Shown: in pieces, positions 7,458-11,536 of the stretch | Layout: every line of letters starts with the position of its first letter | Numbering within the stretch: the stretch's first letter is position 1 | The notes under the pieces: generated by a model | Seen by the model: only the letters and a program-made list of their open reading frames with translations | Told to the model about the DNA's origin: nothing | Database searches by the model: none | Virus record (IMG/VR): IMGVR_UViG_3300030616_000017 | Location: 83,159 to 147,158 of that record | DNA length: 64,000 nucleotides | Reading direction: 5' to 3' (one strand) | Source of the DNA: a virus | Program-made: the position numbers and the translations under genes

Positions 7458-8669
7458 ATGAAACTTTTCACAGAAACATGGAAACAAAAGATGCAGGATA
7501 TCATTGTAGGTATTCAGTATCTTTTCGTAGCGGCAGGAGCAACAATTCTTGTTCCTCTGTTAACAGGTATTCCTGTATCAGTATGCGTAGTGACAGCTGG
7601 TATAGGGACTCTTATTTTTCACTTCATTACGGGTAAGGGAGTACCTGTTCTTCTTTCTTCATCGTTTGCATTTATTGCGCCGATTGTGGCTGTAAAAGAA
7701 CTATATGGTTTGCCTTTTGCATACGGAGGAGTTATTGTAGCTGGTTTATTGTACTTACTGTTTGCAGCTCTTATCTATTTTGTTGGGTTAGAGTTTATTA
7801 AAAAACTATTTCCCACCCCTGTGACAGCAACGATGGTAATTCTAATCGGTTTAATTTTAGCTCCTGTTGCGATTTCAAGTGCTTCACAAAACTGGATTAT
7901 TGCTTTGATTACTCTTGCTGCTGGAGCTGCTATTAAAGTTGTGTGGGATAATAAATTCATTGGCTCATTAGCTATAATTGGAGCAATGGCTGTAGGATAT
8001 CTTGTTTCAATAGCAGCAGGAATTGTAGATGTAAGCGCTGTTCAAGCAGCTGCGCTTGTAGGTGTTCCTGAATTTCAATTACCTCAATTTAATGCAAACG
8101 CTATTATGATTATTGCTCCGATTGCTATTGTAACATTTCTAGAACATTTTGCAGATATTTCCGCAGTGAGTAAAGTAGTTGAAAAAGATTTTCTAAAAGA
8201 TCCTGGTGTACATAAAACATTGATAGGCGATGGTATAGCAACAGCAATTGCTGGTTGTTTAGGAGGTTGTCCTAATACCACGTATTCAGAAAATATAGGG
8301 GCATTAGAGATTACAGGAGTTAAGAGAGCTAGCGTACTAAGAATAACAGCTATAGCTTTAATCGTGGTAGGGTTTCTTCCTAAGATTGCATACCTTATTC
8401 ATTCTATTCCTGCTCCTGTTGTGGGAGGAATCAGCATTCTTCTTTTCGGTCTTATCTCAGCAAATGGAGTTAAAAACCTAGTACAAGAACAAATTGATCT
8501 CAAAGATCATAAGAACCTCTTTATTATAGCGTCCATGTTAATTGTTGGTGCTGGAGGCTCAGTTATTGAAATAGGTTCAGTTACATTTTCCAGCTTAGCT
8601 CTTGCAGCTCTTGTAGGTATAGTGATGAACGTAGCGTTCAATTGGAAAACTTTTTTCAAAAAAAGTTAA
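7458..8669 (+). CDS. uraA: NCS2/NAT family uracil permease
   Basis: Polytopic membrane protein; LSSSFAF, LEHFAD, NAT signature TYSENIGALEITGV. Confidence 0.88.
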   Translation: MKLFTETWKQKMQDIIVGIQYLFVAAGATILVPLLTGIPVSVCVVTAGIGTLIFHFITGKGVPVLLSSSFAFIAPIVAVKELYGLPFAYGGVIVAGLLYLLFAALIYFVGLEFIKKLFPTPVTATMVILIGLILAPVAISSASQNWIIALITLAAGAAIKVVWDNKFIGSLAIIGAMAVGYLVSIAAGIVDVSAVQAAALVGVPEFQLPQFNANAIMIIAPIAIVTFLEHFADISAVSKVVEKDFLKDPGVHKTLIGDGIATAIAGCLGGCPNTTYSENIGALEITGVKRASVLRITAIALIVVGFLPKIAYLIHSIPAPVVGGISILLFGLISANGVKNLVQEQIDLKDHKNLFIIASMLIVGAGGSVIEIGSVTFSSLALAALVGIVMNVAFNWKTFFKKS

Positions 8670-8715
8670 GAAAGTAGTTGAAAAATCTCTTTCGCTTGGT
8701 TATATTATGAGGAGA

Positions 8716-8820
8716 GGGGGAGAAAATGGATTCGACTGCTACACTGCTGAAGCGACGAAAGGCCCAAAGTAACGAAAGCTGAGGTGTAGCAGGACTCGGG
8801 TTCGATGCCCGACTCCTCCA
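8716..8820 (+). ncRNA. ssrA: miniature tmRNA (tRNA-like domain only)
   Basis: GGGGGAG/CTCCTCC acceptor with G3.U70 and A73; GGATTCGAC; 9-bp H2 CTGCTACAC/GTGTAGCAG; GAC; T arm TCGGG-TTCGATG-CCCGA; 39-nt interior. Confidence 0.8.
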
Positions 8821-8833
8821 AAATAAAAAATAT

Positions 8834-8923
8834 GGGCAAGTGGCGAAGCTGGTTGAAACGCATGAGACTTAAAATCTCATACCCAAGCGGTAAACATCGT
8901 GGGTTCGATCCCCACCTTGCCTA
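8834..8923 (+). tRNA. tRNA-Leu(TAA)
   Basis: Cloverleaf, loop CT-TAA-AA, long variable arm. Confidence 0.93.
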
Positions 8924-8927
8924 ATAT

Positions 8928-9001
8928 GGCACCTTAGCTCAGCTGGATAGAGCATGAGATTTCTAATCTCAGGGTCACAGGTTCGAATCCTGTAGGTGTC
9001 A
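8928..9001 (+). tRNA. tRNA-Arg(TCT)
   Basis: Cloverleaf, loop TT-TCT-AA. Confidence 0.95.
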
Positions 9002-9017
9002 TACTAATATAAAAAAT

Positions 9018-9090
9018 GGACCGTTAGCTCAGTCGGTAGAGCAACGCACTTTTAATGCGTAGGTCACAGGATCGTAGCCTGTACGGTTCA
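9018..9090 (+). tRNA. tRNA-Lys(TTT)
   Basis: Cloverleaf, loop CT-TTT-AA; atypical T loop ATCGTAG. Confidence 0.9.
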
Positions 9091-9094
9091 CTAA

Positions 9095-9166
9095 GGTTTA
9101 TTCGTATATTGGTTAGTACGCTGGATTGTCGATCCAGAAGGCGGGGTTCGATTCCCCGATAGACCG
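9095..9166 (+). tRNA. tRNA-Asp(GTC)
   Basis: Cloverleaf, loop TT-GTC-GA, G73. Confidence 0.92.
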
Positions 9167-9210
9167 TTTTTGTAAGAAATCTATATAGTTTTTTCTTACA
9201 AAATCTCTTT

Positions 9211-9284
9211 GCTCCCTTCGTCTAATCGGTTAGGATATCGCCCTTTCAAGGCGAAGATATCGGGTTCAAGTCCCGTAGGGAGTA
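9211..9284 (+). tRNA. tRNA-Glu(TTC)
   Basis: Cloverleaf, loop CT-TTC-AA. Confidence 0.93.
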
Positions 9285-9330
9285 AAACATTTTACTTTAC
9301 TTTTTGGTAGAAAATGATTATATTATATAT

Positions 9331-9592: not shown

Positions 9593-11536
9593 ATGATTTC
9601 CACTCTACGTCTTTTTAATGGTATTATTATTCCCAACAAAGAAGTTCCTGAAGATACTAATTCAGTAATATGGCCTCATGAAAAGTCTTACGAACAGCTT
9701 ACTAAAGAAACTCTCAAGAAAGGATACATTGTTGATAAGGCTATCTATTTTAATCTTACTCCTGAAGGCTTAAAAGACTTTAACAAGGCTATGAAAGAAA
9801 AGCTTACTTTTCATCGAGATTGGAATAATAGCTTTTATAAGTCTTGGAATAAACTGGAAACTCTTTCAGATTTTGAATTGCGTTTAGACCAGCTTTTTCA
9901 TTACTTTACTACGTATGGAGCCGAAGCTCTTGGAATAAAAGATTCTTTTGTTTACCTCCCTAAAGGCAATACTTTTATGCCCCCTGTAAGTGAAGATTTT
10001 TCTTTTCTTTATATTCGTGGATTTGAAAGAGAAGAAATTCAGGAAAAGATTGTAGCTATGGTTGGTTCTGGAATTGCTCTAAAAGAAGAAACCATTGAAG
10101 ATCTTCTTACTATTGTTATGGAATTTTCAAAGAAGCACATTTTCGACATCTTCTCTGTTTGCAAGAACAAGGAAGTGAAGGTTCGATTAGCAGAGTTATA
10201 TGATTTTATTCCTAAAAATGTAGGAGAATTTCTTAGATACGTTATTTACAAGAATACAGGGAAGTCTCTTGTTATTAAGAATAAAGCTACAATTGACGCT
10301 ATAAAGATAGGGAGAGATAGAAAAACTCCTTCTTATTTCTATGCGTATAGAGATGCTTATGGGCTTGAAAGTCTTGCTAAAAACTTTTATCGGTATAAGC
10401 CTCTTCTTCTTGCTTTTCGGTCTGCATTCCCTGAACTAAAGCCACTGATTAATCAAGTAAGAAAACTTGCTGTAAAGTTCCATGAACCTATGAAAGAAGA
10501 TTTTCTTAATACTGTTACCAAAAAAATCAAACAGAATGCTGTTCTTAATCTCACCACTTTAGAACAAGAACTCTTTAAGGCAAACACCTTTAGAAAAGTA
10601 CGGTTGCTATATGCTCTTCAGAATCTGGAAAGCCAAACTGAAGATAAAATCTATAATATTCGGAACGGTAAACAGTATGTAACGAAAGCAAGTATGCCTC
10701 GATTTAAAAAAGAGGATGTTGCTTTTTTAGCTGATAAGGTCTATTCTCATATTGTTGAAGATATTAAACCAAATGTAGAAGGTAAGACAGTTTTGGTTCA
10801 TCCAAGACTTGCATATGCTCTTCCTTCTTCAGAAAAGAATTTTATAGGAAACTACCCTGTCAAGAGTAAGGTAGAATTCAACAGTACAAGAGACCTGATT
10901 ATTGGTGTTCACTGGAAAAATCAAAAAAATAGAGTAGATCTAGATCTTTCTCTTCTTAGTCTTGATGGAACCAAGTTTGGATGGAATGGTCGTTATAGGG
11001 ATGAAGGAATTCTTTTTTCAGGCGATGTGACTGATGCTCCTGGAGCAGGAGCTTCTGAGTTTTATTATTTCAAAGGTGTTAAAGACGGGATGTATTCAGT
11101 AGTTTTGAATTATTACAATTCTTATGGGGTAGAAGAAGAATGCCCTTTTGATATAATTATTGGGGCTTTTGATGGACAAGATATTAATAGGAATTTTATG
11201 TTACGCCCTGAAAATATTGTTTTTCAAGCCTCCTCATCTATCGGCCCTGAACAGATTAATCTGGGAATGGTGGTTATAGAGGGAGACAAAAAAGTATTTA
11301 GTATGATAGAGGGAAAGAGAGCTCGTGCTTCAGTGTCTGCTAACGATGAACTCAATGCTGTATATTTGAATGCACTTAAATCTGAAACTGAAAATATTAT
11401 ATTTCTAACAGATGTGCTTACTGATGCTGGAGCTGTAGTAGTAGAAGATCGAGAAGATTCAGTTATTGATTTTGATCTTACTCCTACCTATATTCAGAAA
11501 GATACCATTATGTCAATGTTTACAAAGGAGAGGTAA
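9593..11536 (+). CDS. helical (Ro/TROVE-like) + C-terminal TerD-like domain protein
   Basis: SD AAGGAG before ATG 9593; C-terminal VDLDLS..GWNGRY..FSGDVTDAP.GASEF; long helical N-terminal region. Confidence 0.6.
   Translation: MISTLRLFNGIIIPNKEVPEDTNSVIWPHEKSYEQLTKETLKKGYIVDKAIYFNLTPEGLKDFNKAMKEKLTFHRDWNNSFYKSWNKLETLSDFELRLDQLFHYFTTYGAEALGIKDSFVYLPKGNTFMPPVSEDFSFLYIRGFEREEIQEKIVAMVGSGIALKEETIEDLLTIVMEFSKKHIFDIFSVCKNKEVKVRLAELYDFIPKNVGEFLRYVIYKNTGKSLVIKNKATIDAIKIGRDRKTPSYFYAYRDAYGLESLAKNFYRYKPLLLAFRSAFPELKPLINQVRKLAVKFHEPMKEDFLNTVTKKIKQNAVLNLTTLEQELFKANTFRKVRLLYALQNLESQTEDKIYNIRNGKQYVTKASMPRFKKEDVAFLADKVYSHIVEDIKPNVEGKTVLVHPRLAYALPSSEKNFIGNYPVKSKVEFNSTRDLIIGVHWKNQKNRVDLDLSLLSLDGTKFGWNGRYRDEGILFSGDVTDAPGAGASEFYYFKGVKDGMYSVVLNYYNSYGVEEECPFDIIIGAFDGQDINRNFMLRPENIVFQASSSIGPEQINLGMVVIEGDKKVFSMIEGKRARASVSANDELNAVYLNALKSETENIIFLTDVLTDAGAVVVEDREDSVIDFDLTPTYIQKDTIMSMFTKER

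What the first reader, a model, noticed from the sequence alone, without database searches (positions are those of the whole stretch)
8716..8820. A 105-nt tmRNA stripped down to its tRNA-like domain
Seen: every tmRNA TLD hallmark is intact (7-bp acceptor with G3.U70 and A73, stemless D loop ending GGATTCGAC, perfect 9-bp helix 2, GAC linker, T arm). Only 39 nt (8745-8783) sit where bacterial tmRNAs have about 250 nt of pseudoknots and tag ORF. It heads the tRNA operon behind its own promoter. The insert contains a short frame GCT GAA GCG ACG AAA GGC CCA AAG TAA (AEATKGPK*) with no C-terminal AA degron and no upstream pseudoknot; this may be chance. Known: TLD-only tmRNAs occur in some protist mitochondria. 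Inference: an alanylatable SmpB/EF-Tu binder that either titrates host trans-translation or frees stalled ribosomes without tagging phage proteins for degradation.
Basis: partly seen in the sequence, partly recalled or inferred. Interest (0 to 1): 0.88.

Follow-up and report, generated by a model that had tools for sequence, protein, structure and literature searches.

The report
Capped tag-less mini-tmRNA family in phages
This 147-kb sediment phage carries a real 105-base miniature of the bacterial ribosome-rescue RNA (tmRNA) that lacks the tag message; that general kind is known from phage DS6A, but this one belongs to an apparently undescribed family whose missing middle is replaced by a small, highly conserved folded cap, probably a docking site for a host partner.

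Summary
Observation confirmed. Window 8716-8820 is a tmRNA tRNA-like domain (Rfam RF00023, 59.9 bits, cut-off 47) with G3.U70, A73 and a 9-bp helix 2a. It is no artefact: two other studies hold the same sequence across the insert. Tag-less phage tmRNA is already published (DS6A), and this scan has noted cap-less forms on other DNA in about 100 genomes. New here: the 39-nt insert is not junk. I found 12 divergent members (102-109 nt, 47-81% identical), most on phage or phage-like contigs and one in a Spirochaetia chromosome beside a normal ssrA and smpB. All helices covary, including a new short stem that closes a cap GACGAAAGGCC-N7-8-CGAAA. The cap is unchanged in 12 of 12, partly because the search required it. 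Two related phages keep a full-length tagging tmRNA instead. Best reading (0.5): a charged RNA that binds host SmpB, enters non-stop ribosomes and competes with host tagging, with the cap as a docking module where pseudoknot 1 would sit. Expression, charging and the cap's partner are untested. New variant of a known kind.

The parts
8678..8706 (+). sigma70-type promoter-like site (TTGAAA-17-TATATT), 9 nt before G1
   Evidence: consensus match only; similar sites 6-7 nt upstream of members L118 and L119
8716..8820 (+). capped tag-less mini-tmRNA gene, 105 nt, CCA not encoded
8716..8722 (+). acceptor stem 5' strand (G3 of G3.U70); pairs with 8813-8819
   Evidence: 84 of 84 cells paired, G3.U70 in 12 of 12
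8723..8735 (+). stemless D loop; G13, U17, G19, A20 unchanged in 12 of 12 (U17 and G19 contact SmpB in E. coli)
   Evidence: PMC8363625
8736..8744 (+). helix 2a 5' strand; pairs with 8784-8792
   Evidence: 104 of 108 cells paired, 9 of 9 pairs with double-sided changes
8750..8753 (+). short stem closing the cap (called P2b here), 5' strand; pairs with 8778-8781
   Evidence: inner 3 pairs 36 of 36 paired and all covarying; outer position A-U x6, A.G x5, G-C x1
8754..8777 (+). conserved cap: GACGAAAGGCC (8754-8764), variable 7-8 nt spacer (8765-8772), CGAAA (8773-8777); predicted C-G/G-C pairs 8756-8757 with 8773-8774 leave an AAAGGCC loop
8793..8820 (+). GAC linker, T arm, acceptor 3' strand, discriminator A73
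   Evidence: T stem 60 of 60 paired; GAC, TTCRA and TCCA were required by the search patterns
8833..9285 (+). first five tRNA genes (Leu, Arg, Lys, Asp, Glu) directly downstream; Leu to Asp are probably co-transcribed with the mini-tmRNA (inferred)

Best explanation
A phage gene for a tag-less tmRNA that works through the host's trans-translation machinery. SHOWN from sequence: conserved TLD fold, alanine identity, SmpB-contact bases, a conserved cap instead of pseudoknots and tag frame, and no phage smpB or arfB. INFERRED: (1) it is transcribed with the tRNA cluster, trimmed and given CCA; (2) host AlaRS charges it and host SmpB and EF-Tu deliver it to non-stop ribosomes; (3) it accepts the nascent chain, adding one alanine, and so outcompetes host tmRNA both for SmpB and for stalled ribosomes, lowering degron tagging during infection; (4) with no message to load, release is left to host ArfB or to splitting or drop-off plus a peptidyl-tRNA hydrolase (a phage Pth2 is present); (5) the cap sits at the end of a shortened helix 2, where helix 2 and pseudoknot 1 of normal tmRNA meet uS19 and 23S helix 38, and acts as a sequence-specific docking module for a conserved host partner.
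For: TLD and all helices kept by compensatory change in 12 sequences of 47-81% identity (97.9% of cells paired, 16 of 20 pairs with double-sided changes, 0 of 500 shuffles as high). G3 and D-loop U17/G19/A20 unchanged in 12 of 12, though mostly not required by the searches; U17, G19 and linker A334 are SmpB contacts (PMC8363625). No smpB in four carrier phage records, no RF-1-domain gene, no full-length ssrA found in them, so the partners must be the host's. A DS6A-like TLD-only RNA inhibits E. coli tmRNA (PMC4131195, PMC11915505). In the translocated state helix 2 contacts uS19 and pk1 lies on helix 38. A chromosomal copy with its own promoter-like site and covarying stems, among housekeeping genes, favours a host rather than phage partner. 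Pth2 in G000, G001 and G003.
Against: No experiment. The DS6A-like RNA inhibited whether or not it could be charged, so ribosome entry is not needed for an effect. After one alanine is added, host tmRNA could still act on the empty A site, so tagging may be delayed and not prevented. Pth2 was not found in G002 and also occurs beside a full-length phage tmRNA, so it is not specific. Cap-less TLD-only RNAs are common, so the cap is not required for this kind of RNA. Related phages keep a tagging tmRNA, so avoiding tags is not a universal need in this group.
Confidence: 0.5

Rival explanations
1. Pure sponge: the RNA titrates SmpB (and perhaps EF-Tu) off the ribosome and never accepts a peptide. 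The cap adds stability or a second binding site, or lets two molecules pair through the self-complementary GGCC loop.
For: Published inhibition by a TLD-only RNA did not depend on charging. GGCC is palindromic and predicted to lie in a loop in the consensus fold.
Against: G3.U70, A73 and a perfect acceptor in all members suggest selection for charging (U70 and A73 were required by the search). A sponge would not obviously need an unchanged cap; DS6A lacks it.
Confidence: 0.22
2. The TLD is a stable scaffold and the cap is the working part: a binding site for a phage protein, or a decoy for a host defence factor that attacks tRNA or tmRNA.
For: The cap is unchanged while the stems drift freely, which points to sequence-specific recognition. 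Members often lie in phage tRNA clusters.
Against: No second copy or complement of the cap in four phage records beyond chance. No neighbour gene shared by all members among the loci compared with G000. A copy persists on a bacterial contig with no phage genes. SmpB-contact bases are conserved.
Confidence: 0.15
3. Vestigial message: the GAC GAA at the start of the cap is the old resume site and a few codons are still read, giving a short non-degron tag.
For: Both related full-length phage tmRNAs resume at GAC GAA (tags DEFDYALAA and DESNYALAA). An A lies at -4 in 11 of 12 members, like A86 (PMC2481249).
Against: Positions -1 to -3 are in a covarying stem and -4 changes to G-C in L118. The spacer is 7 or 8 nt, which shifts the frame; stops fall at different places or are missing in all three frames; there are no synonymous changes. 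About 30 nt seems too short to loop around the 30S head as the pseudoknot ring does (inference).
Confidence: 0.08
4. Decayed remnant, integration scar or assembly error.
For: A relative (L061) has a full-length ssrA in the same slot behind the uracil permease.
Against: Identical sequence in independent studies; 12 divergent members with covariation in every helix; both ends of the TLD are present and no second TLD fragment was found in the genome.
Confidence: 0.02

Closest known systems
TLD-only (CDS-less) tmRNA of Mycobacterium phage DS6A (tmRNA Website tmID 11587; PMC4131195, PMC11915505; Mao et al. 2009 as cited there)
   Same: Phage-encoded, standard order, G3.U70 and A73, stemless D loop, helix 2, T arm; no pseudoknots, no tag frame.
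   Different: DS6A is about 80 nt with a plain capping hairpin and scores only 39.6 bits on the family model against 86-112 for members (the members were the training set). It lacks the GGCC/CGAAA cap (it has a GACGAAA stretch at another place). This family is 102-109 nt, lies in large tRNA-rich phages, and has one chromosomal copy.
Standard bacterial and phage tmRNA (SsrA, Rfam RF00023), e.g. the 287-292 nt tmRNAs of related phages L061 and L269
   Same: TLD sequence and fold, with E. coli numbering in register for U17, G19, A20; L061 has it in the same slot behind the permease.
   Different: No pk1-pk4, H5, resume signal, tag frame or stop codon.
CDS-less organellar tmRNAs (jakobid and oomycete mitochondria, RF02544; about 65-bp Mallomonadaceae plastid genes) and possibly tag-less bacterial tmRNAs (Nasuia, 9FT-COMBO-53-11), PMC11915505
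   Same: TLD without a tag frame, presumed to work with SmpB.
   Different: Those are not described as extra copies beside a full tmRNA, and the mitochondrial ones are usually permuted. Here the RNA coexists with a host full-length tmRNA (shown for the Spirochaetia MAG). The database lists no CDS-less form for Spirochaetota.

Membership tests
tmRNA (RF00023, standard form) | tRNA-like domain: 7-bp acceptor with G3.U70 and A73, stemless D loop, T arm, helix 2 | tested here: met
tmRNA (RF00023, standard form) | Score above the Rfam gathering cut-off | tested here: met
   59.9 bits against 47; seven other members pass, L064, L109, L137 and L151 do not
tmRNA (RF00023, standard form) | mRNA-like domain with resume codon, tag frame and stop | tested here: not met
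   no conserved frame or stop in 12 members; ARAGORN finds none
tmRNA (RF00023, standard form) | Pseudoknot ring pk1-pk4 | tested here: not met
   39-nt insert; model region skipped
CDS-less / TLD-only tmRNA (DS6A kind) | Complete TLD in standard order with no coding segment | tested here: met
CDS-less / TLD-only tmRNA (DS6A kind) | SmpB-contact bases kept (U17, G19, linker A) | tested here: met
   with PMC8363625; the linker was required by the search pattern
CDS-less / TLD-only tmRNA (DS6A kind) | Expressed, alanylated, binds SmpB, inhibits host tmRNA | not testable with these tools
   needs bench work
Permuted (two-piece) tmRNA (RF04321) | 3' TLD half upstream of the 5' half, with an intervening segment | tested here: not met
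   25.6 bits, partial, below 47; order is standard and no second TLD half was found
tRNA (RF00005) | D stem and anticodon stem-loop | tested here: not met
   no D stem; not called by ARAGORN; tmRNA is the best clan match
Hammerhead or other catalogued Rfam motif for the cap | Match to a family model or a conserved CUGANGA core | tested here: not met
   no such Rfam match at E up to 1; the CUGA stretch is not conserved

The most novel reading that the evidence does not exclude
The cap is a compact functional replacement for pseudoknot 1 and the message. It docks on the ribosome, lets the peptidyl-RNA translocate, and hands the complex to a hydrolase, so this is a productive tag-less rescue route and not an inhibitor. 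A bacterium has adopted it as a second rescue RNA beside its normal tmRNA. It would also be a natural model for how tag-less organellar tmRNAs work.
Probability: 0.15. Interest if true: 0.82.

Novelty: new variant of a known kind. Interest (0 to 1): 0.55.

Why it matters
What tag-less tmRNAs do (mitochondrial, plastid, DS6A) is an open question stated in the 2025 tmRNA database paper. This family gives 12 natural, covarying variants about 105 nt long that are easy to make and test, and it marks one small module under strong sequence constraint at the spot where helix 2 and pseudoknot 1 cross the ribosomal bridges. Comparing it with cap-less DS6A-type RNA and with full-length tmRNAs of related phages would show whether phages jam, redirect or streamline host ribosome rescue. 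ARAGORN misses the window member and four of 12 members fall below the Rfam cut-off, so the family is under-annotated.

Tried and rejected
No RNA holder listed among public runs; this says nothing about expression. Cap as mimic of, or antisense to, 16S/23S rRNA (I noticed a likeness to 16S h16 and 23S H70-71 from memory): no better than shuffles in E. coli or spirochaete rRNA (shuffle fractions 0.10-1.0). Cap as a GAAA-tetraloop hairpin: pair probability 0.13 or less in every member. Hammerhead: core not conserved. Antisense partner or second cap copies in four phage records: none beyond chance. Cap motif outside a TLD: the other viral and spirochaete hits lack TLD and closing stem and look like chance or coding sequence. 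Phage smpB and ArfB/RF-1 domain: not found. CCA-adding enzyme: in G001 and G002, not found in G000 or the G003 fragment. The 647-665 aa protein after the tRNAs as partner: phage-only family of unknown function, shared only with G001 among the genomes compared. Cultured phages: no full-length match by blastn; capsid and terminase are only 23-28% identical to any isolate, so the host is unknown. Spirochaete genomes: found in 1 of 151 relatives and 1 of 401 of the phylum searched. Literature: no paper held for 'mini-tmRNA' or 'phage-encoded tmRNA', only unrelated papers for the cap sequence; Mao et al. 2009 is not held and is cited second-hand. The P2b count printed mis-parsed L114; the corrected count is.

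Full report
1. Observation. The sequence at 8716-8820 is as described: 7-bp acceptor with G3.U70, A73, stemless D loop, nine Watson-Crick pairs in helix 2a (8736-8744/8784-8792), GAC linker and T arm. Rfam RF00023 scores it 59.9 bits against a cut-off of 47 and skips the whole pseudoknot and tag region. ARAGORN does not call it. It folds better than 200 of 200 shuffles. A promoter-like site ends 9 nt upstream and tRNA-Leu starts 12 nt downstream. The genome is a 147,158-bp phage with an end overlap of about 230 bp, 18 tRNAs, distant T4-like capsid and terminase and no close cultured relative. It comes from marine sediment. Contigs from two further studies, one a 2023 salt-marsh sample, cross the insert with no difference, so it is not an assembly error.

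2. Precedent. A TLD-only tmRNA in mycobacteriophage DS6A is published, and a similar molecule is reported to inhibit host tmRNA, perhaps by titrating SmpB, whether or not it can be charged (PMC4131195; PMC11915505). The 2025 database holds nine standard CDS-less sequences, none from Spirochaetota. My own cap-free patterns found several other TLD-only classes in viral and metagenome contigs, and this scan has 118 earlier notes holding these words. A tag-less phage tmRNA is therefore not new in itself.

3. What is new. A pattern with no constraint on the insert hit a very different TLD (L038) with nearly the same insert. Follow-up scans gave 12 distinct members of 102-109 nt, 47-81% identical. 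Acceptor 84 of 84 cells paired, T stem 60 of 60, helix 2a 104 of 108 with all nine pairs covarying. After an internal loop comes a short stem whose inner three pairs are formed in 36 of 36 cells by different sequences (AGC/GCU, CCC/GGG, GGA/UCC, UGU/GCG, UGC/GCG). On the alignment, 97.9% of cells pair and 16 of 20 pairs show double-sided changes, above all 500 shuffles and all slid controls (relatedness and deriving the structure from the same alignment inflate this). That stem closes a cap, GACGAAAGGCC, 7-8 variable bases, CGAAA, unchanged in 12 of 12. Caveat: the main scans required CGAAAG and CGAAA, plus GAC, TTCRA and TCCA, so those positions are fixed by construction and variants there would be missed. 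The leading GA and trailing GCC of the cap were free in the eight members and still match at 40 of 40 positions. A covariance model scores members 86-112 bits (its own training set) and everything else in the loci held 53 or less, DS6A 39.6. The consensus fold puts two unvarying pairs inside the cap and leaves AAAGGCC in a loop; this is a prediction, since unvarying pairs carry no covariation.

4. Coding. The spacer is 7 or 8 nt, no frame keeps a common stop, and the fixed part of the cap has no U and so no stop codon. Two related phages, found through the neighbouring uracil permease (67-68% identical), have full-length tmRNAs whose tags begin GAC GAA; one lies in the same slot behind the permease. 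The cap may descend from that resume region, but the bases before it now form a covarying stem, which argues against it being read. Other permease relatives show no tmRNA within the 6-10 kb examined.

5. Distribution and partners. Four carriers with long contigs share core proteins at about 25-55% identity; in none was a full-length tmRNA, smpB or RF-1-domain gene found (two of the records are incomplete). Pth2 is in three of four but also beside a full-length tmRNA. Most other members lie in tRNA clusters or among phage-type genes, some on contigs too short to classify. One member (L118, L160; two assemblies) lies on a bacterial contig between carbohydrate and lipoprotein genes and nqrA, with no phage gene seen, in a Spirochaetia MAG that also has a 331-nt ssrA, smpB and a short ArfB-like RF-1-domain frame. 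It was found in 1 of 401 spirochaete genomes searched, so it is a sporadic capture. It hints at a spirochaete host for some carriers but does not show it. The cap has no second copy or complement in the phage records and no significant likeness to rRNA.

6. Mechanism. Alanine identity and the SmpB-contact bases U17 and G19 are kept (PMC8363625), so the RNA most likely uses host AlaRS, SmpB and EF-Tu. With no message it can add one alanine and go no further; release must come from ArfB, or from splitting or drop-off and a hydrolase (established pathways, PMC8012679). The likely net effect is competition with host tagging, as reported for the DS6A-like RNA. In normal tmRNA, helix 2 touches uS19 and pk1 lies on helix 38 after translocation; the A-rich cap sits at the end of a shortened helix 2 and is best read as a docking module for a conserved host partner. 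Steps from transcription onward are inferred. Odds: ribosome-entering competitor with docking cap 0.5, pure sponge 0.22, scaffold for a phage protein or defence decoy 0.15, vestigial message 0.08, remnant or artefact 0.02.

7. Verdict. Real and conserved; works like the DS6A TLD-only tmRNA; fails membership of standard tmRNA (no message, no pseudoknots). It is a new variant because of the cap family, which I did not find in Rfam, in the papers searched, or in this scan's notes on other genomes.

Noticed in passing
window 7458-8669 (+): NCS2 uracil permease belongs to a clade (60-74% identical) whose sampled members all lie on phage contigs, often next to ribonucleotide reductase; one is followed by a PRPP-synthetase-like gene and has an IMPDH-family gene nearby.
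   Followed up: partly
L061:7264-7550 (+) and L269:6472-6763 (+): Full-length phage tmRNAs (287-292 nt) with the resume codon only about 65 nt from the 5' end, apparently without a normal pseudoknot 1; tags DEFDYALAA and DESNYALAA.
   Followed up: partly
L120:918-994, L121:540-616, L130:1188-1264, L141:694-770; also L005, L008, L021, L034, L046, L071, L086, L087, L090: Other TLD-only classes of about 77-112 nt without the cap.
   Followed up: no
window 9593-11536 (+): 647-aa protein of a phage-only family with no Pfam match; predicted fold partly like MXAN_6230/SCO0854 RING-domain proteins (TM 0.64). It sits before an RNA ligase and a transglycosylase; related phages have a DUF2828 protein in a similar neighbourhood.
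   Followed up: partly
L104:7319-7500 (+): In a related phage the slot behind the permease holds a folded, GC-richer non-coding stretch before tRNA-Leu with no Rfam match at E up to 0.5.
   Followed up: partly
G000:C1:54222-54635 (-), L213:10222-10635: Phage Pth2 (archaeal-type peptidyl-tRNA hydrolase), 49% identical to those of G001 and G003, where it lies 0.5-4.5 kb from the mini-tmRNA.
   Followed up: partly
L117, L125, L132, L143, L154 (about 139 nt each): A recurring conserved bacterial non-coding-looking element ending CATTCACAACGACAAGATTTCGACAGGAGA turned up as a by-catch of the pattern scan; not identified.
   Followed up: no
G000:C1:52900-72200 (outside the window): Clusters that look, from the translated N-termini only, like sugar-modification (NeuB-like, glycosyltransferase) and 7-deazaguanine (QueC/QueE/FolE-like) genes.
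   Followed up: no
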